IMG/VR virus record: IMGVR_UViG_3300010289_000003
Coordinates: 1 to 27,546 of that record
DNA: 27,546 nt
From: a virus
Lineage: Duplodnaviria; Caudoviricetes
Reading direction: 5' to 3' (one strand)
Under the pieces are notes generated by a model that was not told where the DNA came from, did not search any database, and saw only the letters and a program-made list of their open reading frames with translations. The translations under genes and the position numbers were made by a program. Below, one piece after another: positions 10,218 to 21,892 of this stretch (position 1 is the stretch's first letter; each line of letters begins with the position of its first letter).

Positions 10218-10528
10218 CTGCCATAGTGAGTCAGAAGCTCTTGCACTCCGGCTGCAGCGATAAGCATAATCAGGACGTGTATATCCGGTGACGGCGAACA
10301 GTACCAGGCCAGGCCCAACAAGACAGAAAACCATACCCCGGTGCAGAAGCGACAATGCCACCCATCCGCGAACATATCCCAGAAGGGATGTTTCTCCGCA
10401 GCCGTTTCTAGCGCAATCCGTATGCGCCGGAAAACGTAAAACGGCCCATCGTCCAGTGCTACCAGTGAGGACAGGCGATAGGCAGCTAGCGCGATGATCA
10501 AAACTGAAGCCAGTGCATCACTCATCAT
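10214..10528 (-). CDS. DUF1360-like small membrane protein
   Basis: LAAYRLSSLVALDDGPF...CRFCTGVW plus hydrophobic helices; GGGGAG SD before ATG 10528/10525. Confidence 0.7.
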   Translation of the reverse strand: MMSDALASVLIIALAAYRLSSLVALDDGPFYVFRRIRIALETAAEKHPFWDMFADGWHCRFCTGVWFSVLLGLAWYCSPSPDIHVLIMLIAAAGVQELLTHYGR

Positions 10529-12236
10529 CAGCTTCTCCCCGCGCGTCGTCACTCGCGTTCCTGGCCCGACGGGGGCGGCGTTTCCGCTCCTCGATAACAA
10601 CGTTGTTAACATTGTCAACCTGCACCTGAACCGGTTTCTCTTCGCGTAATTCGTTCGGAATATCACGCGAAACGACACGAAAAACACCGGTTGCAAGCAA
10701 GCCCGGTACATCCCTGGTGTCTACAGCGACCAGACGATAACGACCTGTCAGGCCTGCTTTATAGGACCGGCCAGACACCTTGCCGATCCAGGTAGCTGCC
10801 CCAACTGAGTTGCCGGTGTATTCCATCAGCGTACTCGAACTGTCAACGTCCGGCACTTTCGTTTTTACACCGTAGACATCGGTTTGAATCCTCACCCTCT
10901 TTCTGCCACATCCAGCGCAAGCCATTGAATCACCTCCATCACCAGATCTTGTGTATAACTCAGGATATAATGCCTTTATACTTTCGAGGAACTGCCAGCG
11001 CGGTGTACCACGTCTCGTGGTTCTGTTTTGACCTTCCCTGCGGTAGCAATACCCTGCGTAGTCAAGATGCTTGCCGGCATATCCTGCGCGAGCGAGAGCA
11101 ATGTTAAAGGCCCAGTCCTCTCGCCCATCGCTCATCACCTCTGGGTATCCTCCGACTTCTTTCCACCAGCGGCGTTTGAACATAATGCCGGCGTGCATCG
11201 TGTTCTGGTGCGCAAGAAAAAGCAGCTCGCGTTCAACCGCTTCCATCCGAACCGTCTTTCTGTGCCCGTCGGTGCAGAAAACGATGTCGTCGCAGATTAC
11301 CCGGCCGGGGTTGCTTATCGCCGCTTCATACATTTTTGCCAGACGTTCCGGTTGATACCAGTCGTCCGCACTGAGGATTGTAATGTACTCCCCGTAGGCA
11401 GCTTCAATGCCGGTGTTGTTAGCAGCGGCCGTGCCGCGGTTTTTGCTGTGATGGATTACTCTTATCCCGTGCCGGTGATCGGCAAAACTGTCAGCGATGT
11501 CACCACTCCCGTCGGTGCTTGCGTCATCAACAATTACGACCTCAAACGCCTGGAATGTTTGTGCCATCAGGCTTTCAAGGGCCTGTTTGAGATAACGACC
11601 GTAATTGTACAGCGGTACGATAACAGATACAAGCGGTGGAGTGTGAAAAAAAACATCCCTCTTTGCCGGCTCGTCACGTAAAGCGCGTTCTATAGCCGCC
11701 CCAAAGCGCCTGCGCGGCTCGTGAACGAGACCGGACAGGCCTGTAACAGGAGAAACAGAAAACCCGCTCCTACAAGCCCTGACCTGCCACTCGGCCGTTG
11801 CCCCCCACAAGGGGAAAAGATGGGCATTGAACCCGCCGATCTTATTCAGCGCCCGGCGTGCAATGGCCATAAATGTTCCCTGCACGTAGCCGGTCGGCCA
11901 AGCGGGGTTGTTAAATACTCCATCGCCATAACATCCTGCACTGCCCTGTCCAAGAAAAGCGCTGGCAGTGTGAAAACACTGCTCACTGGTGAACCAGACA
12001 TCCTGGTTAATAACCACAACATCGCTGTCACCGGCTGCCTCGAAACCGACATTACAAGCGCCGGAAAAATACCCTCTCTCCTGCAGGTTTATGACCTGCG
12101 CATTTCCATTCTGCACCTCTGGAGGTTTGCTGCCGGCATCGTTAACGATGATGACCGGCATATCTCTTGGTAAGCTGTCTAACAAGCGGGCGATAGTCTT
12201 GTGTCCGTGCCAGAATGGAACTATCGCGGTCAACAT
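10518..12236 (-). CDS. Two-domain family-2 glycosyltransferase with C-terminal extension
   Basis: Two GT-A starts (LTAIVPFW...IIVND...GYFSGACNVG...INQD and VSVIVPLYNYGRYL...IVDDASTD...NRGTAAANNTG...LSADD...EDW). The C-terminal 135 aa have their own SD and ATG. Confidence 0.9.
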   Translation of the reverse strand: MLTAIVPFWHGHKTIARLLDSLPRDMPVIIVNDAGSKPPEVQNGNAQVINLQERGYFSGACNVGFEAAGDSDVVVINQDVWFTSEQCFHTASAFLGQGSAGCYGDGVFNNPAWPTGYVQGTFMAIARRALNKIGGFNAHLFPLWGATAEWQVRACRSGFSVSPVTGLSGLVHEPRRRFGAAIERALRDEPAKRDVFFHTPPLVSVIVPLYNYGRYLKQALESLMAQTFQAFEVVIVDDASTDGSGDIADSFADHRHGIRVIHHSKNRGTAAANNTGIEAAYGEYITILSADDWYQPERLAKMYEAAISNPGRVICDDIVFCTDGHRKTVRMEAVERELLFLAHQNTMHAGIMFKRRWWKEVGGYPEVMSDGREDWAFNIALARAGYAGKHLDYAGYCYRREGQNRTTRRGTPRWQFLESIKALYPELYTRSGDGGDSMACAGCGRKRVRIQTDVYGVKTKVPDVDSSSTLMEYTGNSVGAATWIGKVSGRSYKAGLTGRYRLVAVDTRDVPGLLATGVFRVVSRDIPNELREEKPVQVQVDNVNNVVIEERKRRPRRARNASDDARGEADDE

Positions 12237-12311: not shown

Positions 12312-13646
12312 TTATGGACACTCAGCAGGCGTAAAACTGGTTTGCGGATAGAAGCTAGTTTCTAGAGGATCAGGGCTGAGCGGGCCAGAAGGCGTGCGCA
12401 CGACGACGTCTTGGATTCTCACCTGTGCCCAGGGAGCAAGGCACCACAAGCGGTTGCGCATCCAAATCTTGACCGCACTGCACAAGTTTTCCACAGATAG
12501 CGCCATCAGGAAGCGACCGCCATCCATCGGCATGTAAGCCAGATTGTCCGCCAGATCCCCCAGGCTGGCCAGCACCTGGTTGGCATCCAGGAACTCGCCC
12601 TCCCAAATTCGCTGGTTGCCGACCGCGCCGGTCAGCACATACATATCGCAAGTTGTCGGCCCGTTGATCAGCCCCCAGTCGTATGCCAGGAGCGGAATGG
12701 TATAACCGTCGAGGCTGATTTGTCCATCTCCGAACAGCCCGCCATTCAACGACTGACGGAACTCGCGAATGTCAGCGAGATTTTTCTGCACCTCTTCGTA
12801 TTGAGCACCAGGGCACACCGACCAACAGGCAAACTCATCAAGCAATCCGCGCGCTGCGAACGACGGCAACAAAATGATTACGTCTCCTGTCTTCATCTGT
12901 TGATTGTTGAGCAGAGGAGACCAGGCGATGCGTTGCCTGATGTTGCGTGTCAGGTCGAGCAACCAGTCTACAAGCGTAAACCCTGATGCTACCGGATTCC
13001 CGTTGAGCGTGATCGCCCCTCCGCCTGTGCCGTCCAGGTTGTTTCCGTTCCAATCCAGAACATACGAGTCAAGCGCTGAGCAAGTATATCCGGTGCGTAC
13101 CCAACGCTGCAGCCCGTTGAATTGCCCTCCCACGGAATCATTTCCCGTGATCAGGGCAATCCGAATATCGTTCAGCACCTGATCCATCGTGAAAAACAAA
13201 TCCCACGTTCGCTCATCCTCAACCGGCGAGCCGTCGTAGAACTTGCGCGGATTCGTCTTGCAGTACCGTTGCGGCTTCCACAAATCGCGCGTCGGGCCGG
13301 AACGGCCAAAGCGCCCGAAATCATCAACAGACAGTGAGCAGCTTCCAAACTCGATGCCATACGGGTCGCTGCACGGATTGGCGATGTAGCCAGGAGAATA
13401 ACCACTCAACAGAGGAGCCGGACGGAGATATGATATGAAGTCAACAACGCGGTAACAATCCGTCGTCACATTCCAGCCCAACCAGTCCAGCAAACCCAGT
13501 GTACCTGGTCGGTAATACAAACTCATAATTGAGTCAGCGCACTGGTCAAAAAAGTTGCAACAACCAAACGGCGATGCCGTATTGCTGAGCGTCATTCGGC
13601 GAACTTCATCACCTGGTGTTGTCAGAGCACGCGTGGAGATTGTCAT
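12312..13646 (-). CDS. Major capsid protein
   Basis: 444 aa, SD AAGGAGGTGA, follows the protease/scaffold gene, followed by a hairpin; ALITGND..GQFNGL is typical of HK97-fold capsids. Confidence 0.82.
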   Translation of the reverse strand: MTISTRALTTPGDEVRRMTLSNTASPFGCCNFFDQCADSIMSLYYRPGTLGLLDWLGWNVTTDCYRVVDFISYLRPAPLLSGYSPGYIANPCSDPYGIEFGSCSLSVDDFGRFGRSGPTRDLWKPQRYCKTNPRKFYDGSPVEDERTWDLFFTMDQVLNDIRIALITGNDSVGGQFNGLQRWVRTGYTCSALDSYVLDWNGNNLDGTGGGAITLNGNPVASGFTLVDWLLDLTRNIRQRIAWSPLLNNQQMKTGDVIILLPSFAARGLLDEFACWSVCPGAQYEEVQKNLADIREFRQSLNGGLFGDGQISLDGYTIPLLAYDWGLINGPTTCDMYVLTGAVGNQRIWEGEFLDANQVLASLGDLADNLAYMPMDGGRFLMALSVENLCSAVKIWMRNRLWCLAPWAQVRIQDVVVRTPSGPLSPDPLETSFYPQTSFTPAECP

Positions 13647-15229
13647 TTCTTCACCTCCTTAGTCAATTTCTCCTGCAGGATGCGCCTTGCGCGCTCTGCC
13701 GCGCTCTCCTGCGCATCACCGCTATCGCGGGCGACCTTCGGACGCCATACCTCAACCTGGGGGGCTGGCAGGTCGCTCAAATAGATTTGCCTTTGTCTGT
13801 TTTGGGCGGCTTCCAGAGCATCAACGCGCGCCGTGATCTCCGTGATGAAGCTGCGCATCTGCTCGGCAAGTTGGTTCAGAGCCTCACGCTGAGCTACAAG
13901 CTCACGGGCCATTTGCACCAGCCCATCCTCACCGTCATCAGCCCCACCATCGCTGTCACCACCCGTATCGCCTGCCTGCCCAGGCTCTCCCGTGGTCACC
14001 GCACGCGCCGTTATCGCTGCCTCAGCAATCTGCCGGTTGGTAGCCTCGACTTGCGCAAGCCAGGCTTCCAACTCGTCATCGCTCAAACCAGCACTGCGGG
14101 CAAGCGCAACCAATGCCTCTCTTACTTTTTGATCCATCCCATTTACCTCCTCTACATTTATTTGTGTAAACAACGCTGCCGCCTGATCCTCTGGCAACGT
14201 TGATATTTCAACCAGATAACCATCCGTGTAAACCGGAACACCTATCCCCTCGATGTCGTGTTGCTCCCTGGAGATAGGTCTGTAACCGATACTCTCTCCC
14301 CACCTGTCTGGGTTGCGGCACACTGCCGCAATCTCAACAGCGGCGAGTGGTGTATCATCATACACCCCAGACGTGATCAACACATAACCGTCGCGCGCCA
14401 CAAAGTCGCACTGCCCGGTTTTGAATCGCTTGCCCTGGTGAAAGAACGTTCGATAGGGGTAGCCGTACTCCTGGACGCGATTGACGAAATTATCGAATAA
14501 CCGAGTCGAGTCAATCTCGCCCACCCGGTTCAAGACAGCGGTGCAACTGCGCGAGAACCAGCGATACTTACCGTCAGCCTGACGCCTGACAACAACCTTG
14601 CCTTCGGCTCTTCGCCGCTCAGACTCATTGCCCATTTCGGCAAATTGCCCCTCTCTGGTCACAATGCCGTCCCCGGTAACATCAAAAAAGACACGGTGCA
14701 ACCGCCCATCCTTCAGCGTCAATGCGTATGTGTCATCCTGCGTTCGGTAGACGTTCACGAGATAAGATGAACTCTCACCAAGCGCCCGGCTTAACCTGGC
14801 AACCATAGCACTGCGTTCCGCAGGCGGTTCAAGACCTGCGGTCTCGTACACGCTATCCGGCGCAACATCGCCGGCCTGTTCGTATGCGCCGATCAGCTCG
14901 CGCGCTGCGGATTGCAGTGCTCTTTGCCAATCCTCTGCTGACACATCATCTGGTTTCTGCATTGGCGTTCTCGCCCCTGCCAAAGCGGCTGCCGCCGCGG
15001 TCAGGGCCTGGCGCACATAAGCTGTCTCACCTGGTTCACGCACCGGCAGTTTACATAACTCCTGAGTCCAGTCATCTGGATTCTCCCTGCCGGCCGCTTC
15101 GTTCAGGTTGATCAAGCAGGCATTGCAGTAGGCTTGTGTCGAACCGTAACGGGAGGGACTCCCGTCCCAAGTGTCAACGCTCTTGACCTTGCGAGAAATC
15201 CAGTCCAAGACGCTTGATACGATTTGCAT
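13643..15229 (-). CDS. Prohead protease / scaffold fusion with extra N-terminal domain
   Basis: Start re-called to ATG 15229 (SD GGAGGGG). N-terminal WDGSPSRY...CKLPVREP...AAAALAGAR domain, central HK97-type protease-like segment (NRVGEID, FFHQ, LVEISTLP), C-terminal coiled coil. Confidence 0.72.
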   Translation of the reverse strand: MQIVSSVLDWISRKVKSVDTWDGSPSRYGSTQAYCNACLINLNEAAGRENPDDWTQELCKLPVREPGETAYVRQALTAAAAALAGARTPMQKPDDVSAEDWQRALQSAARELIGAYEQAGDVAPDSVYETAGLEPPAERSAMVARLSRALGESSSYLVNVYRTQDDTYALTLKDGRLHRVFFDVTGDGIVTREGQFAEMGNESERRRAEGKVVVRRQADGKYRWFSRSCTAVLNRVGEIDSTRLFDNFVNRVQEYGYPYRTFFHQGKRFKTGQCDFVARDGYVLITSGVYDDTPLAAVEIAAVCRNPDRWGESIGYRPISREQHDIEGIGVPVYTDGYLVEISTLPEDQAAALFTQINVEEVNGMDQKVREALVALARSAGLSDDELEAWLAQVEATNRQIAEAAITARAVTTGEPGQAGDTGGDSDGGADDGEDGLVQMARELVAQREALNQLAEQMRSFITEITARVDALEAAQNRQRQIYLSDLPAPQVEVWRPKVARDSGDAQESAAERARRILQEKLTKEVKK

Positions 15230-15239
15230 TGTCCCCTCC

Positions 15240-15275
15240 AAAAAAAAACGAGACCGAGGTATTTCTCGGTCTCGT
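15240..15275 (-). terminator. Intrinsic terminator / attenuator in the leader of the protease-capsid-tail operon
   Basis: 11-bp stem ACGAGACCGAG-aaatac-CTCGGTCTCGT followed by 8 more T, directly before the SD. Confidence 0.85.
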
Positions 15276-15289
15276 GGACTCTAACATAA

Positions 15290-15318
15290 AATATACCATA
15301 AAACGCTGCAAAAGTCAA
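15290..15318 (-). promoter_or_regulatory. Sigma70-type promoter for the head-tail operon
   Basis: TTGACT-17 bp-TATATT with extended -10 TGn. Confidence 0.8.
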
Positions 15319-15352: not shown

Positions 15353-15390
15353 GGCAAGAACCCCACACGCGGGCGTGTGGGGTTCTTGCC
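15353..15390 (-). terminator. Long hairpin closing the leftward cassette transcript
   Basis: Perfect 18-bp inverted repeat GGCAAGAACCCCACACGC / GCGTGTGGGGTTCTTGCC, 18 nt past the stop at 15409. Confidence 0.75.
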
Positions 15391-15408: not shown

Positions 15409-15756
15409 CTACGCCATTGAGCTGCGGGCCAGGGCTTCGTCTAGCGTGAGGGGGCGACCGAACCCGCACGCATCCCCGAGGTCTTCAAACCGCCCCCCCA
15501 CACACAAGTCATCCTCCGTCACCAATTCCAACCACTCCTCTGTCGGTTCATTCTGGAACCGACTCCAAGCGTTCGAGTGGACGACCAGCCTCCCGTCATC
15601 CGCTCTGTACAATGTGCGGGTGACGCCCCTGTTGTCACCGCTGTACTCCTCGTCGCGGCCCAAGACTTCTGCCACGAACTCGACGTTCTTGCGTTGATCG
15701 TCAACACGCGAACCCGTCCACACTATCCGGCCTACATTCACCATTACCGTTTCCAT
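15409..15756 (-). CDS. Hypothetical acidic protein (cassette, leftward transcript)
   Basis: 115 aa, SD GGAGGT, own promoter and hairpin; no family confidently recognised. Confidence 0.8.
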   Translation of the reverse strand: METVMVNVGRIVWTGSRVDDQRKNVEFVAEVLGRDEEYSGDNRGVTRTLYRADDGRLVVHSNAWSRFQNEPTEEWLELVTEDDLCVGGRFEDLGDACGFGRPLTLDEALARSSMA

Positions 15757-15830
15757 TTCTACCTCCAGTTCTAGTTGTCATTTGGCCTCGCGTCTGGGGC
15801 CGAGGCCGCGCCCCTGTTCGATTTTTCATC

Positions 15831-15859
15831 ATCATATCATACTTTCCTCAATTTGTCAA
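15831..15859 (-). promoter_or_regulatory. Leftward sigma70 promoter
   Basis: TTGACA-aattgaggaaagtatga (17)-TATGAT with extended -10. Confidence 0.85.
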
Positions 15860-15919
15860 GGGGTTTCGGGGATGCAGAAACCGAAATTCTTAAAAATCTG
15901 GAGAAATTCTTAAAAATGC

Positions 15920-15948
15920 TTGACAAATTGCGAAAAGTATGCTAAAAT
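15920..15948 (+). promoter_or_regulatory. Rightward sigma70 promoter P1
   Basis: TTGACA-aattgcgaaaagtatgc (17)-TAAAAT. Confidence 0.85.
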
Positions 15949-16026
15949 GTAGACAACAATTTGATAAGGGAGAGTGAGATGCAGAAACCGAAATTCTTAA
16001 AAATCTGGCGAAATTCTTAAAAATGC

Positions 16027-16055
16027 TTGACAAATTGAAAAAAGTGTGATAAAAT
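16027..16055 (+). promoter_or_regulatory. Rightward sigma70 promoter P2
   Basis: TTGACA-aattgaaaaaagtgtga (17)-TAAAAT. Confidence 0.85.
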
Positions 16056-16090
16056 GTAGACAAATAAAGATGGATGAGGAGGTAAATAAA

Positions 16091-16579
16091 ATGAAGAAGA
16101 TCATAAACTTGAGGGGCGAGCTTTTTGGCAAGATGAAGGCTTTGGGTCATTACGACAGCAGGTTCTCCGGCCACTGGGCAAAGCAGGTCACGGACGTTAA
16201 TCCGAACGGAACCAACGGGTACGCCTTCGAGGGGGAGTTCATCCCCGGAGGTGATGTGGAGGTCGAGGTCGGCAACCATCTGTTTCTAGTTGCCACGGTT
16301 GCCGGCTCACGCAAGTACCAGACAAAATATTACCGGTTGTTCGTGATGACCCAAGACGGAGAACTGGTGGCGACGGAGTACGCCACCACGGACGAAATAG
16401 GCGGCTGGGCACTCCGGCTCCGTCAACCCGCGATCGACATCCTGAGCTCATTTCGGACTCAGCAGCCTCAGCCGGAGGCTCAGGCGGAGGACACGGTTGT
16501 TGAGAACCCCCTGGCCGTGTTCTCAGATGAGCAGATCCGCGCGGAGTTCGTCCGGCGCGGACTGACACTGACACTGTAA
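16091..16579 (+). CDS. Hypothetical protein (first gene of the rightward cassette transcript)
   Basis: Start re-called to ATG 16091 (SD GAGGAGGT); 162 aa; family not recognised. Confidence 0.8.
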   Translation: MKKIINLRGELFGKMKALGHYDSRFSGHWAKQVTDVNPNGTNGYAFEGEFIPGGDVEVEVGNHLFLVATVAGSRKYQTKYYRLFVMTQDGELVATEYATTDEIGGWALRLRQPAIDILSSFRTQQPQPEAQAEDTVVENPLAVFSDEQIRAEFVRRGLTLTL

Positions 16580-16590
16580 CGGTGGCCCAC

Positions 16591-16623
16591 GAAGGTGGGG
16601 GATGGCCTCCATCCCCCACCTTC
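16591..16623 (+). other. Intergenic stem-loop (processing, stabiliser or partial terminator)
   Basis: 15-bp perfect stem GAAGGTGGGGGATGG-cct-CCATCCCCCACCTTC, no U tract, ends 3 nt before the AGGAGG SD. Confidence 0.7.
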
Positions 16624-16639: not shown

Positions 16640-17026
16640 ATGGACGTGCCAATGCCAAGTGGTTTTTCTGTTAAGGTGGCCCACGTGGCCGCAGCCTGCG
16701 GCCTACTCCCACCTGGTTTCGACCGGTGGGAGCTTGCCGACGTCCACGGCTGGACGGTAGCCCACGTGGCCGCCTCCCGCGGCAAGCTCCCCCCGGATTT
16801 CGACCGGTGGGAGCTTGAGGATGCCTGGGGCTGGACGGTGGCCCACGTGGCCGCCGCCAACGGCAAGCTCCCACCCGATTTTGACCGGTGGGAGCTTGCC
16901 GACGTCCACGGCTGGACGGTGGCCCACGAGGCCGCCGCCAACGGCCTACTCCCACCTGATTTTGACCGGTGGGAGCTGGAGGACGAAAGCGGCTGGACTG
17001 TGGCCCAAGCGGCCGCCGAACACTGA
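16640..17026 (+). CDS. 27-aa ankyrin-like repeat protein 1 (128 aa)
   Basis: SD AGGAGG, ATG 16640; repeats GWTVAHxAAxxGxLPPDFDRWELxDxx. Confidence 0.85.
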   Translation: MDVPMPSGFSVKVAHVAAACGLLPPGFDRWELADVHGWTVAHVAASRGKLPPDFDRWELEDAWGWTVAHVAAANGKLPPDFDRWELADVHGWTVAHEAAANGLLPPDFDRWELEDESGWTVAQAAAEH

Positions 17027-17093
17027 CCCCCCCCCCGCCGGCTTCAACCAGCATTTGGTGGGCCGCGCATACCGACCACGCGGAGGAGACAAA

Positions 17094-17798
17094 ATGGACA
17101 GGCAACCAGATGCTACAGCACGACTCATCGAAGCCGCCAAGTGCGGCAAGCTCCCCGCCGGTTTCGACCGGTGGGAGTTAGCCTATGAGGACGGCTGGAC
17201 GGTGGCCCACGCAGCCGCCGCCTACGGCCTACTCCCACCGGGTTTCGACCGGTGGGAGCTGGCTGACATCTGCGGCTGGACGGTGGCCCACGTGGCCGCC
17301 AAGTGCGGCAAGCTCCCACCTAATTTCGACCGGTGGGAGCTTGCCGACCGCAACGGGTGGACGGTTGCCCACGAGGCTGCCGCCTACGGCAAGCTTCCAC
17401 CTGATTTCGACCGGTGGGAGCTGTCCGCCGGCCCTAGCGGCTGGACGGTGGCCCACGTGGCCACCAAGTGCGGCAAGCTCCCACCTGATTTCGACCGGTG
17501 GGAGCTTGAGGATACCTACGGCTCGACGGTGGCCCACGTGGCCGCCTCCCGCGGCGACCTCCCCCCGGATTTCGACCGGTGGGAGTTGGTGGACGACTGC
17601 GGCTGGACGGTGGCCCACGTGGCCGCCCAGCACGGCAATCTCCCCCCGGATTTCGACCGGTGGGAGTTAGCCGATCGTGACGGCTGGACTGTGGCCCACG
17701 AGGCCGCCGCCAACGGAAACCTCCCACCTGATTTCGACCAGTGGGAATTGGTGGACGAGAGCGGCTGGACTGTGGCCCAAGCGGCCGCCGAACACTGA
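17094..17798 (+). CDS. 27-aa ankyrin-like repeat protein 2 (234 aa)
   Basis: SD GGAGGAG, starts MDRQPDATARL, ends GWTVAQAAAEH. Confidence 0.88.
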   Translation: MDRQPDATARLIEAAKCGKLPAGFDRWELAYEDGWTVAHAAAAYGLLPPGFDRWELADICGWTVAHVAAKCGKLPPNFDRWELADRNGWTVAHEAAAYGKLPPDFDRWELSAGPSGWTVAHVATKCGKLPPDFDRWELEDTYGSTVAHVAASRGDLPPDFDRWELVDDCGWTVAHVAAQHGNLPPDFDRWELADRDGWTVAHEAAANGNLPPDFDQWELVDESGWTVAQAAAEH

Positions 17799-17853
17799 AA
17801 CCTCCAACCAGCATTTGGTGGGCCGCGCATACCGACCACGCGGAGGAGACAAA

Positions 17854-18606
17854 ATGGACAGGCAACCAGATGCTACAGCGCGACTCCTCGAAGCCGCCAA
17901 GTGCGGCAAGCTCCCCGCCGGTTTCGACCGGTGGGAGTTAGCCTATGAGGACGGCTGGACGGTGGCCCACGCAGCCGCCGCCTACGGCAAGCTCCCCCCG
18001 GATTTCGACCTGTGGGAGCTAGCCGACCGCAACGGGTGGACTGTGGCCCACGAGGCCGCCGCCCGCGGTACGCTTCCAGCCGGCTTTGACCGGTGGGATC
18101 TCGAGGATGCCTGGGGGTGGACTGTGGCCCACGAGGCCGCCGCCCGCGGCGACCTCCCACCTGATTTCGACCGGTGGAAGCTGTCCGCCGGCCCTAGCAG
18201 ATGGACGGTGGCCCACGAGGCCGCCGCCCGCGGCGACCTCCCACCTGATTTCGACCGGTGGGAGCTAGCTGACATCTGCGGCTGGACGGTGGCCCACGTG
18301 GCTGCCGCCCGCGGCGACCTCCCACCTGATTTCGACCAGTGGGAATTGGTGGACGACTGCGGCCGCACAGTTGCCCACGTGGCCGCCACCTACGGAACAC
18401 TCCCCACCGGTTTCAGCCGGTGGGAGTTGGTTGACGACCTGGGACAGACGGTGGCCCACGTGGCCGCCGCCCACGGCAAGCTCCCAGCCGACTTCAGCCG
18501 GTGGGAGCTTGCCGACCGCAACGGGTGGACTGTGGCCCACGTGGCCGCCGCCCGCAGCGGCCTCCCCACCGGTTTCGACCGGTGGGAGCTGGTAGTACAG
18601 AGGTGA
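17854..18606 (+). CDS. 27-aa ankyrin-like repeat protein 3 (250 aa)
   Basis: Same leader and N-cap as protein 2; ends RWELVVQR. Confidence 0.88.
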   Translation: MDRQPDATARLLEAAKCGKLPAGFDRWELAYEDGWTVAHAAAAYGKLPPDFDLWELADRNGWTVAHEAAARGTLPAGFDRWDLEDAWGWTVAHEAAARGDLPPDFDRWKLSAGPSRWTVAHEAAARGDLPPDFDRWELADICGWTVAHVAAARGDLPPDFDQWELVDDCGRTVAHVAATYGTLPTGFSRWELVDDLGQTVAHVAAAHGKLPADFSRWELADRNGWTVAHVAAARSGLPTGFDRWELVVQR

Positions 18607-18608
18607 AA

Positions 18609-19019
18609 ATGGACGCAGCGCGATTTATCGAAGACGCTGCCCACGGCAAGCTCCCCGATGGATTCAGTCGGTGGGAGCTTGCCGACCAGTGGGGCTGGAC
18701 TGTGGCCCACGCAGCCGCCGCCTACGGCAAGCTCCCCGATGGATTCAGTCGGTGGGAGCTTGCCGACCACAACGGAATGACGGTGGCCCACGCAGCCGCC
18801 ACCAGCGGCACGCTACCCGATGGCTTTGACCAGTGGGAGCTTGCTGATCACGGCGGCTGTACAGTTGCCCACTACGCTGCTGCCCGCGGCGACCTCCCAC
18901 CTGATTTCGACCGGTGGGAGCTAGCCGACCGCAACGGAGTGACGGTTGCCAAAATGGCCGCCATCCACGGAAACCTTCCAGCCGGCTTTGACCGGTGGGA
19001 GTTGGTAGTACAGAGGTGA
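18609..19019 (+). CDS. 27-aa ankyrin-like repeat protein 4 (136 aa)
   Basis: SD GAGGTGA overlaps the previous stop; starts MDAARF, ends RWELVVQR. Confidence 0.88.
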   Translation: MDAARFIEDAAHGKLPDGFSRWELADQWGWTVAHAAAAYGKLPDGFSRWELADHNGMTVAHAAATSGTLPDGFDQWELADHGGCTVAHYAAARGDLPPDFDRWELADRNGVTVAKMAAIHGNLPAGFDRWELVVQR

Positions 19020-19021
19020 AA

Positions 19022-19753
19022 ATGGACGCAGCGCGATTCGTCGCAGCCGCTGCCCACGGCACACTCCCAGATGGATTCAGTCGGTGGGAGCTTGCCAACC
19101 GCAACGGCTGGACTGTGGCCCACGAGGCTGCCACCAGTGGTTACCTCCCCTCCGACTTCAACCAGTGGGAGCTTGCCGACCAGTGGGGCTGGACAGTCGC
19201 CCACGTTGCCGCCAAGCGCAGCAAGCTCCCCCCAGATTTCAACCGGTGGGAGTTAGCCGATCGTGACGGCTGGACGGTGGCCCACGAGGCCGCCGCCCAC
19301 GGCACGCTACCCGCCGGCTTCGACCGGTGGGAGCTAGCAGACCGCAACGGTGTAACGGTGGCCCACGTGGCCGCCAGGCACGGCAATCTCCCGACCGGCT
19401 TCAGCCGGTGGGAGCTAGCGAATGAGAACGGCTGGACTGTGGCCCACGAGGCCGCCGCCCACAGAAAACTCCCGGCCGGCTTCGACCGGTGGGAGTTGTC
19501 TGCCGGCCACAGCGGCTGGACTGTGGCCCACGAGGCCGCCTCCCGCGGCAAGCTCCCCGCCGGTTTCGACCGGTGGGAGTTGGTTGACGCCCTGGGACAG
19601 ACGGTGGCCCACGTGGCCGCCACCCACGGCACGCTACCCGCCGGTTTCGACCGGTGGGAGCTGGCAGACCGCAACGGTGTAACGGTAGCAAAAGTAGCCG
19701 CTGCATACGGAAACCTTCCAGCCGGCTTTGACCGGTGGGAGTTGGTGAGATAA
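19022..19753 (+). CDS. 27-aa ankyrin-like repeat protein 5 (243 aa)
   Basis: SD GAGGTGA; starts MDAARF, ends RWELVR. Confidence 0.88.
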   Translation: MDAARFVAAAAHGTLPDGFSRWELANRNGWTVAHEAATSGYLPSDFNQWELADQWGWTVAHVAAKRSKLPPDFNRWELADRDGWTVAHEAAAHGTLPAGFDRWELADRNGVTVAHVAARHGNLPTGFSRWELANENGWTVAHEAAAHRKLPAGFDRWELSAGHSGWTVAHEAASRGKLPAGFDRWELVDALGQTVAHVAATHGTLPAGFDRWELADRNGVTVAKVAAAYGNLPAGFDRWELVR

Positions 19754-19782
19754 GCGCAGACCAATCACGCGGAGGAGAAAAA

Positions 19783-20364
19783 ATGGACAGGCAACCAGAT
19801 GCTACAGCGCGACTCCTCGAGGCCGCCGCCCGCGGCAAGCTCCCCGCCGGTTTCGACCGGTGGGAGCTTGCCGACATCTGCGGCTGGACGGTGGCCCACG
19901 TGGCCGCCACCCACGGCACGCTACCCGCCGGTTTCGACCGGTGGGAGCTGGCAGACCGCAACGGTGTAACGGTGGCCCACGTGGCCGCCGCCTACGGAAA
20001 CCTCCCACCCGATTTTGATCAGTGGGAGTTGGAAGACGCAAGTGGACGGACGGTGGCCCACGTGGCCGCCGCCCGCGGCAAGCTCCCCCCGGATTTCGAC
20101 CTGTGGGAGCTAGCGGACACCTACGGGTGGACGGTGGCCCACGAGGCCGCCAAGATGGGCAAGCTCCCCGCCAGTTTCGACCTGTGGGAGATGGCGGACA
20201 CCTACGGCTGGACTGTGGCCCACGAGGCCGCCGCCAACGGCACGCTACCCGCCGGCTTCGACCGGTGGGAGATAGACGACTGGGCTGGCTGGACTGTGGC
20301 CCAAGCGGCCGCCGAACACGGCAAGCTCCCCGCCGGCTTTGACCGGTGGGAGCTGGTGAGGTAA
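19783..20364 (+). CDS. 27-aa ankyrin-like repeat protein 6 (193 aa)
   Basis: SD GGAGGAG; starts MDRQPDATARL, ends RWELVR. Confidence 0.88.
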   Translation: MDRQPDATARLLEAAARGKLPAGFDRWELADICGWTVAHVAATHGTLPAGFDRWELADRNGVTVAHVAAAYGNLPPDFDQWELEDASGRTVAHVAAARGKLPPDFDLWELADTYGWTVAHEAAKMGKLPASFDLWEMADTYGWTVAHEAAANGTLPAGFDRWEIDDWAGWTVAQAAAEHGKLPAGFDRWELVR

Positions 20365-20396: not shown

Positions 20397-20732
20397 ATGT
20401 ACAGAAATACAGATTTTACAATGCGTGAGATTCAAGATTCTGAGTATGGAGAATTGCTCCGTGCACTCGCTGTGAATCCGTTTGATGCAGAGGCGCGCGA
20501 GAAAGTGGCTGTGCTCCTGCGCAAACATAAGAGCACGCAAGAATACTACGGCGATTTGTACCGCTCAGAATACGCTTCTTGTCATAGACAGGGAGAGTAT
20601 GGTTTGGAAGTGTACCACAATTTCTCCGAACGGCTGAGAGAGTACTTCTTGTCGATCGGCGGAAATAGCCTGGCTGCAAACCGGTTAGCCAGGTTTGATG
20701 CAGAGGGATTTGTGGAGATGTTAGCGGGTTAG
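20397..20732 (+). CDS. Hypothetical helical protein (111 aa) embedded in the repeat array
   Basis: SD GGGAGGGG before ATG 20397; visibly lower GC than the repeat genes; family not recognised. Confidence 0.72.
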   Translation: MYRNTDFTMREIQDSEYGELLRALAVNPFDAEAREKVAVLLRKHKSTQEYYGDLYRSEYASCHRQGEYGLEVYHNFSERLREYFLSIGGNSLAANRLARFDAEGFVEMLAG

Positions 20733-20748
20733 AAATACAGAAAAAAAC

Positions 20749-20808
20749 TTGGCTGCCAAGCACGGCAATATCCCCACCGGTTTCAGCCGGTGGGAGTTGG
20801 TGAGGTAA
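20749..20808 (+). pseudogene. Orphan 3' end of a repeat gene (AAKHGNIPTGFSRWELVR*)
   Basis: In-frame translation of 20752-20808 matches the ends of repeat genes 5 and 6, including the following GCGCA. Confidence 0.8.
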
Positions 20809-20819
20809 GCGCACCCCCA

Positions 20820-20862
20820 AAAACAAACGCGGCCCGTGGTCTTTACGGGCCGCATTTGTTTT
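20820..20862. terminator. Bidirectional intrinsic terminator between the cassette and the terminase-portal operon
   Basis: AAAACAAAc-GCGGCCCGT-ggtcttt-ACGGGCCGC-aTTTGTTTT; U-rich tail on both strands, between convergent genes. Confidence 0.85.
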
Positions 20863-21058
20863 GCTCTGCAAAAATGGCCGTCAAGTCAGCGATAAATTGC
20901 AACGTGTCAACATCCACCAGACGCCCGCCGCGGGCAACAGTGCGGTTGCAGTTCTTCTTGTCCATAAACAGCAAGCGCGTACCAACCAGGCGACAAAGGG
21001 GAATCCCACCCACCCTGATCAGACTGTCACCATCTATGGTCACTATTCGCCCATCCAT
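20843..21058 (-). CDS. Small hypothetical protein
   Basis: 71 aa, overlaps the MuF-like stop, GAGG upstream; ends within the terminator. Confidence 0.55.
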   Translation of the reverse strand: MDGRIVTIDGDSLIRVGGIPLCRLVGTRLLFMDKKNCNRTVARGGRLVDVDTLQFIADLTAIFAEQNKCGP

Positions 21059-21693
21059 AGCGCCTCACAATCCTCTACCTGCTTGGGGCGTATATCCCAA
21101 GTATGCGGGCAGTTAACGTGGTACGGGGGAGGGTTGTTTAACGCAACCCTCAGCGGGACAAAACCGCGATTGATCCAGCCCACACACACAGGACACACGC
21201 CTTGCCTCGGTTCAAGAATGGCAAACCCGATGGCGTTGGCGTTCATCCGATAAAATTCCTGTTGAGCAAGCGCGCGCGCGGTCTTGTCTGTCACATTGGC
21301 AATCTGAGCGTCTTTCCACTTCCAGTACTCCTCATCAAAACGCCGTATCCGCGCGGCGTAGTAATGGCGATTCCCCCGCGGGTTATCCTGTCTGGCGCGC
21401 TTGATCTCGTTGGCCAGGTAGTAGTTGTAGGTGTTAACGATGCTCTGCGCGTCCGCGAGCGACATTTCGTTCAGCTTGCTCAACGTCTCGTTATTCCTGA
21501 GTCCAGCCCGCCGACCTGCACAACCAACATTCCCAGCCTGGATCTCAAGCTCCTGCTCGTATGAAGCGCGCCGCGCGCGCAACAACTCGCGTCTAATCTG
21601 CTCGACATCCGCAGCATCATACCGCGCAGCAAGGTGAACCAGCCGCTGCACGTTCGAGAACTGCTCAACGACGGCGTGCCAGTCAAGCGGCAT
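21043..21693 (-). CDS. Head morphogenesis protein (MuF / SPP1 gp7-like)
   Basis: VCPVC...PPYHVNCPH motif, follows the portal gene; start re-called to ATG 21693 (GGAG SD). Confidence 0.78.
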   Translation of the reverse strand: MPLDWHAVVEQFSNVQRLVHLAARYDAADVEQIRRELLRARRASYEQELEIQAGNVGCAGRRAGLRNNETLSKLNEMSLADAQSIVNTYNYYLANEIKRARQDNPRGNRHYYAARIRRFDEEYWKWKDAQIANVTDKTARALAQQEFYRMNANAIGFAILEPRQGVCPVCVGWINRGFVPLRVALNNPPPYHVNCPHTWDIRPKQVEDCEALWMGE

Positions 21694-21892
21694 CGTCGCT
21701 CTCCAGAGCAGCAAGCCATTCATCCTCTGGGATATTCTCGACGCCCTGCGCTTTGGCTTCCCGCGCGACTTCGTGTAGTGACTTGAGTCTTAAAAGAAAA
21801 CCACGACGTAATCGGCGCCGCTTCAGCTCCTCAGCCCTGGCCTTACCAGGAGAAAAAAAGGCGAGAGGGGGAAACAGATTCTCTCCCATCAC
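21683..21892 (-). CDS. Small hypothetical protein
   Basis: 69 aa filling the portal-MuF gap, overlapping both neighbours; GGAGGT SD. Confidence 0.6.
   Translation of the reverse strand: MMGENLFPPLAFFSPGKARAEELKRRRLRRGFLLRLKSLHEVAREAKAQGVENIPEDEWLAALESDDAA

What the first reader, a model, noticed from the sequence alone, without database searches (positions are those of the whole stretch)
16640..20364. Six-gene array of shortened (27-aa) ankyrin-like repeat proteins resembling a natural binder library
Seen: six adjacent genes, each with its own SD, are made almost entirely of GxTVAHxAAxxGxLPxxFDRWELxDxx (approx. 42 units). Framework positions are nearly fixed. Variation concentrates after AA (SR, AN, KC, QH, TY, IH, KM), after H (V/E/A/Y), and in the loop before G (VH, AW, IC, RN, TY, QW, HG). 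Known: canonical ankyrin repeats are 33 aa with GxTPLHxAAxxG plus a second helix, and binding residues sit in the beta-turn and helix 1. Here helix 2 is replaced by LPxxFDRWEL. Inference: a distinct solenoid family kept as a diversified paralog set, expressed from host-type promoters, perhaps binding host defence proteins or signals. No signal peptide or catalytic domain is visible.
Basis: partly seen in the sequence, partly recalled or inferred. Interest (0 to 1): 0.88.

Follow-up and report, generated by a model that had tools for sequence, protein, structure and literature searches.

The report
Shuffled mini-ankyrin gene cassette in phage
A phage from hot-spring metagenomes carries six back-to-back genes built from a shortened 27-residue ankyrin repeat whose scaffold is fixed while its likely binding face differs in every copy, so it is likely a recombination-shuffled set of protein binders used against the host, with targets still unknown.

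The parts
15871..16063 (+). Tandem 86-nt repeat holding two sigma-70-type promoters (TTGACA-17-TAAAAT with TG) at 15920 and 16027
   Evidence: 4 promoter-like sites vs 1.0 +/- 1.1 in shuffles
15831..15859 (-). Divergent promoter of the same type, facing the 115-aa gene 15409-15756
16094..16579 (+). 161-aa gene of no known family, first gene of the cassette
   Evidence: no Pfam, PADLOC or NCBIfam hit; no usable Atlas hit
16591..16623 (+). Perfect 15-bp hairpin just before the A1 ribosome-binding site, no T tail
   Evidence: z -3.2
16640..17026 (+). Repeat gene A1, 128 aa, 4 units
17094..17798 (+). Repeat gene A2, 234 aa, 8 units
17854..18606 (+). Repeat gene A3, 250 aa, 9 units; modelled as an ankyrin-like solenoid
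18609..19019 (+). Repeat gene A4, 136 aa, 5 units
19022..19753 (+). Repeat gene A5, 243 aa, 9 units
19783..20364 (+). Repeat gene A6, 193 aa, 7 units
20397..20732 (+). 111-aa gene of no known family, between A6 and a relic gene end
   Evidence: no hit
20747..20813 (+). Non-coding relic of a repeat-gene 3' end (83% like the A6 end)
   Evidence: nhmmer E 1.7e-10
20829..20853 (+). Terminator-like hairpin closing the cassette
21043..21723 (-). Flank: 226-aa gene after the portal-position gene, read as a MuF-like minor head protein (by position and motif, no family hit)
   Evidence: naming is inference
12312..15241 (-). Flank: 532-aa and 444-aa genes read as protease/scaffold and major capsid (by position, no family hit)
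   Evidence: naming is inference

Best explanation
The six genes form an accessory cassette inserted into the phage head operon that is likely transcribed by host polymerase and encodes six predicted cytoplasmic, one-helix-per-repeat ankyrin solenoids that likely act as a varied set of protein binders against host factors. Shown: intact genes, fixed framework, variable face, chimeric gene ends, decoupled unit halves, absence of the cassette at this site in a related phage. Predicted: the fold and the promoters. Inferred: the variable residues (hairpin positions 24, 26, 27, 2 and helix positions 7, 10, 11) form the concave binding face; unequal crossing-over and short-tract conversion between the 81-bp units change gene number, unit number and face composition; selection keeps the scaffold and favours new faces. 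The targets are most likely host proteins in conflict with the phage, such as anti-phage defence components, blocked by stoichiometric binding (about 0.3 for anti-defence specifically).
Against: No target or partner identified; no conserved neighbour across 150 + 60 neighbouring proteins scanned. pN exceeds pS in only 11 of 23 arrays, and ratios near 1.0 in several large ones; units are not independent, and high GC3 (0.83 vs 0.59) and conversion depress pS. The same positions vary in all ankyrins, so variability alone is expected. Of 7 strain-variant groups translated, only 3 touch face positions; the rest hit outer positions or a cap, and 58 of 168 (X2) and 37 of 108 (X3) contigs fit two places, so placement is uncertain. 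The largest expansions (29-128 matches) are in cellular genomes, partly among housekeeping genes. The window's own proteins lack the basic tail. Sporadic fusions to unrelated enzymes fit a promiscuous passenger too.
Confidence: 0.5

Rival explanations
1. Near-neutral gene accordion: one useful ankyrin-like gene was amplified and scrambled by recombination between GC-rich 81-bp repeats; the scaffold is kept so the proteins fold, and the face varies because constraint is relaxed, not because new specificities are selected.
For: Chimeric gene ends, truncated ends of A1/A2 and non-coding relics at 20747-20813 and in a second cassette of the same phage; pN/pS about 1 or below in 12 of 23 arrays; sporadic contexts and fusions; giant 30-53-unit proteins in some genomes.
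Against: All six genes intact with ribosome-binding sites; face positions outpace other exposed positions in 21 of 23 arrays and exceed pS in the five arrays with the lowest pS (0.15-0.39) and in L201.
Confidence: 0.25
2. Homogeneous polyimmunity cassette: the paralogs neutralise toxins of competing cells or phages and protect a lysogen.
For: Ankyrin immunity proteins and tandem polyimmunity loci are described (PMC3482391, passages read); the cassette lies next to a MuF-position gene; constitutive-type promoters.
Against: The 226-aa flank gene has no room for a toxin domain and ends like its relative; no polymorphic toxin domain among the neighbours scanned; lysogeny not shown (record 45% complete).
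Confidence: 0.12
3. Eukaryote-directed effectors like the sponge phage ANKp, dampening grazing or immunity.
For: Phage ANKp precedent (bioRxiv 10.1101/608950, passages read); heavy expansions in Deltaproteobacteria-labelled MAGs whose isolate names I recall, unchecked, as insect-gut sets.
Against: No signal-peptide-like stretch; all 3 runs holding the cassette are labelled hot springs; many homologs sit on phages and plasmids of free-living anaerobes.
Confidence: 0.07
4. Acidic elongated DNA mimics that jam host nucleases or other DNA-binding proteins.
For: 5 of 6 proteins have pI 4.6-5.0; outer positions average -1 charge per unit in homologs.
Against: The acidic side is the conserved side while the neutral, aromatic side varies; one mimic would need no repertoire.
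Confidence: 0.05

Closest known systems
Canonical 33-residue ankyrin repeat (Pfam Ank, Ank_2-5) and DARPins
   Same: Hairpin DxxGxT, TxxH-AAxxG inner helix, stacked curved solenoid with caps, variability at the positions equivalent to the randomised concave face (face description from PMC8229355 and PMC8683736 passages; exact position numbers recalled).
   Different: 27 residues; TVAH instead of TPLH; the outer helix is replaced by a non-helical LPxxFxxW segment with near-invariant Phe and Trp; natural, shuffled by recombination.
Phage ANKp of sponge Ankyphages (bioRxiv 10.1101/608950)
   Same: Phage-encoded stand-alone ankyrin-type protein near head genes.
   Different: Two of the three Ankyphage proteins carry signal peptides and act on animal cells; these have none, come as a six-gene diversifying array, and are from hot-spring runs.
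Imm-ank and homogeneous polyimmunity loci (PMC3482391)
   Same: Tandem paralogs of one binding domain with no intervening toxin gene.
   Different: No cognate toxin or other immunity family seen; phage cassette rather than chromosomal locus; non-canonical repeat.
Phage morons (term and definition recalled)
   Same: Own promoter and terminator, inserted between conserved head genes, different GC, absent at this site in a relative.
   Different: Content is a paralog array that rearranges internally, and relics of its repeat flank unrelated genes.
Diversity-generating retroelements (features recalled)
   Same: Fixed scaffold with hypervariable surface codons.
   Different: Variation is not adenine-specific, synonymous sites vary, no template or reverse transcriptase in the held sequence.

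Membership tests
Canonical ankyrin repeat | Scores above Pfam gathering cut-off for an ankyrin model | tested here: met
   Ank_4 28.1-63.3 bits vs 22.7 for 6 of 6; Ank_3 above cut-off for 5 of 6; no single stretch passes alone
Canonical ankyrin repeat | 33-residue period | tested here: not met
   32 of 39 anchored units are 27 aa; 332 intervals of 27 in 120 homologs, 3 of 33
Canonical ankyrin repeat | Two antiparallel helices per repeat | tested here: not met
   One helix per unit in a pLDDT 94.5 model and a 6-residue gap over helix 2; prediction only, short 3-10 turns may be unlabelled
Canonical ankyrin repeat | Beta-hairpin plus TPLH-type motif starting the inner helix | tested here: met
   DxxGxTVAH aligns to DxxGxTPLH; bridges flank the loop in the model
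Canonical ankyrin repeat | Stacked curved solenoid superposable on ankyrin domains | tested here: met
Canonical ankyrin repeat | Binds proteins through the concave face | not testable with these tools
   No partner known; only sequence variation at the equivalent positions
Diversity-generating retroelement target | Variation confined to template adenines | tested here: not met
   Variable columns have majority C 16, G 12, A 7, T 3; 4 A columns are near-invariant; synonymous variation throughout
Diversity-generating retroelement target | Reverse transcriptase and template repeat in the element | tested here: inconclusive
   None among 29 window proteins, but the record is 45% complete
Phage moron | Own promoter and terminator | tested here: met
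   Consensus matches only: 11 of 12 promoters at 15920 and 16027, hairpin 20829-20853
Phage moron | Inserted between conserved genes and absent in a relative | tested here: met
   L170 keeps the upstream flank genes and has two unrelated genes before its next head genes, no repeat match; one relative only
ANKp-type secreted phage ankyrin | N-terminal signal peptide | tested here: not met
   No hydrophobic stretch in 6 of 6 by hydropathy; SignalP not available
Polyimmunity locus (Imm-ank) | Association with polymorphic toxin domains | tested here: inconclusive
   None among neighbours scanned; orphan loci need no neighbour
Known anti-phage defence system | Match to a PADLOC model | tested here: not met
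   0 of 11 cassette proteins at E 0.01

The most novel reading that the evidence does not exclude
Phages and plasmids of anaerobic and thermophilic bacteria carry a natural, antibody-like repertoire: 81-bp units of a helix-deleted ankyrin are recombined within and between tandem genes to generate new binding faces against host defence proteins within populations, and the same repeat DNA serves as crossover linker that moves unrelated accessory genes between cassettes.
Probability: 0.2. Interest if true: 0.8.

Novelty: new variant of a known kind. Interest (0 to 1): 0.5.

Why it matters
It defines a compact ankyrin variant (one helix plus a Phe/Trp loop) that my searches did not find described, common on mobile DNA and mostly annotated as hypothetical or generic ankyrin. 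If the arrays are binder repertoires, they would be a recombination-driven route to new counter-defence specificities, distinct from DGRs, and pull-downs with them would be a way to discover host defence targets. A 27-residue scaffold from hot-spring phages, with natural statistics from hundreds of units, is also a candidate smaller DARPin framework.

Full report
Observation. The window is a 27.5-kb virus record, 45% complete, with a terminase and head and tail-type genes on the minus strand. Between 16640 and 20364 lie six intact plus-strand genes of 128, 234, 250, 136, 243 and 193 aa, each with a GGAG/GAGG site. They hold 42 LPxxFxxW motifs; 32 of 39 anchored units are 27 aa. Fourteen positions are nearly fixed and positions 2, 7, 10, 11, 13, 16, 24, 26, 27 vary. 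The same DNA is identical in two other assemblies and in run X1, which may share a sample.

Setting. The array is part of a cassette: two tandem promoters in an 86-nt repeat, a 161-aa orphan gene, a perfect 15-bp hairpin, the six genes, a 111-aa orphan, a relic gene end and a terminator-like hairpin. GC is 67-68% against 52-57% in the core. It interrupts the head operon on the opposite strand; a relative with 59% identity in the flank gene has two unrelated genes at that site. This fits a moron. Another record of the same phage (L168, 99.8% identical over 6,514 nt) shows a second promoter-led cassette where a 391-aa orphan is flanked by a first-half relic (E 3.7e-4) and a second-half relic of the repeat (89% over 46 nt to the A1-A2 spacer, E 1.3e-10; unit profile E 0.18). 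All 3 runs holding the cassette are labelled hot springs. The host is unknown.

How diversity arises. Gene starts come in three types and gene ends in three types, in mixed combinations, with exact shared tracts up to 101 nt: the mark of unequal crossing-over. Unit halves are nearly decoupled (rho 0.16) and 22 of 45 informative site pairs show four gametes. Variation is not adenine-specific, so this is no DGR. In strain contigs, X2 shows 14 listed substitutions in the 3.7-kb array against 12 in 15.3 kb of core, X3 14 against 32; array changes are clustered, core changes single; X2 has a joint with a net loss of 81 nt. Against over-reading: many contigs fit two places, and only 3 of 7 translated variant groups touch the predicted face.

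Selection. Framework dN/dS is 0.04 over 29 internal units. I mapped the DARPin randomised positions (numbers recalled; face described in PMC8229355 and PMC8683736, passages) through the alignment to positions 2, 10, 11, 24, 26, 27 and compared them with six other exposed positions. pN was higher at the face in 21 of 23 arrays; here 1.79-fold (bootstrap 1.48-2.21) and pN/pS 1.26 (1.07-1.53); 2.5 in the youngest array. pN exceeded pS in only 11 of 23. All 30 units differ over the seven face positions. Pairwise counts on recombining, GC3-biased units are weak evidence, so diversifying selection is suggested, not proven.

The family. 422 proteins of similar length match at E 0.001 among 8,000 candidates; in the best 120 the 27-residue interval occurs 332 times, next 28 with 26; 37 longer ones also match. 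A motif scan found 6 stretches on 5 viral contigs and 152 stretches in 48 of 64 parts of the genome collection; the 151 listed come from 32 genomes, 25 of them labelled Deltaproteobacteria or Desulfo- (hand count). Five such genomes hold 6-128 matches, with proteins up to 53 units. Tandem arrays of 4-7 genes recur: beside a phage integrase (L032), on low-GC phage-like contigs with the same C-terminal cap (L201, L182), and on plasmid pDF308 with 34 places. 200 of 265 distinct repeat frames have no other stretch of 90 residues; fusions are sporadic (relaxase, UvrD, polyphosphate kinase, ASCH, HTH). No neighbour is conserved. 44 of 120 homologs end in a shared short basic tail, 0 of 119 capsid controls do; I read it from memory as a conjugative translocation signal, untested. 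There is no match in cultured phages or PADLOC.

Mechanism. Most likely (0.5): host polymerase transcribes the cassette, six cytoplasmic solenoids present different concave faces, bind host proteins in conflict with the phage and block them by binding; recombination among 81-bp units renews the faces. Fold and promoters are predicted; binding, target class and timing are inferred. Rivals: near-neutral accordion (0.25), polyimmunity (0.12; PMC3482391 passages), eukaryote-directed effector like ANKp (0.07; bioRxiv 10.1101/608950 passages), DNA mimic (0.05).

Novelty. Eight literature searches showed no description of this repeat; the pDF308 genome paper does not mention ankyrins (PMC2885270, passages). 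This scan had already noted 27-residue mini-ankyrin arrays in other phages (e1-5667069, e1-5667074); I could not compare their sequences (a sequence look-up found 0), though L201 and L182 show the same design. Verdict: real, new variant of a known kind, interest 0.5.

Noticed in passing
L168:90-1770 (minus strand): Second accessory cassette of the same phage: consensus promoter, 74-aa gene, repeat first-half relic, 391-aa orphan gene, repeat second-half relic, then an exact 83-nt copy of the promoter; repeat DNA may act as a crossover linker for unrelated genes.
   Followed up: partly
window 15248-15318 (minus strand): A promoter-like site is followed at once by an 11-bp hairpin with a run of T just before the 532-aa head gene; may be an attenuator or the cassette's left terminator.
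   Followed up: no
window 15353-15390: Perfect 18-bp inverted repeat downstream of the 115-aa gene 15409-15756, which has a weak EXLDI-family match below cut-off.
   Followed up: no
window 15750-15980: Contigs of X1 and X2 run off at 15750 into other sequence, suggesting the promoter block is repeated elsewhere in the phage.
   Followed up: no
window 17027-17036: Run of 10 C after the A1 stop, in a relic of the repeat; 3 nt shorter in an X3 contig.
   Followed up: no
window 2849: All three runs carry one more base here than the window, so the window likely has a one-base assembly error.
   Followed up: no
window 10518-12236: Two-domain glycosyltransferase gene directly after the capsid-position gene.
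   Followed up: no
L080:3793-6519: Seven repeat units fused in frame in front of a full polyphosphate kinase in a Desulfovibrionaceae genome.
   Followed up: partly
L178:1155-16379: Five scattered repeat genes sharing a near-identical 93-residue leader of no known family in a large phage-like contig; strongest face-over-synonymous ratio (2.5).
   Followed up: partly
L249:18141-24279: Seven tandem genes of a more diverged 27-residue variant on Deferribacter plasmid pDF308, a cultured organism usable for experiments; annotated as hypothetical or histidine triad protein.
   Followed up: partly
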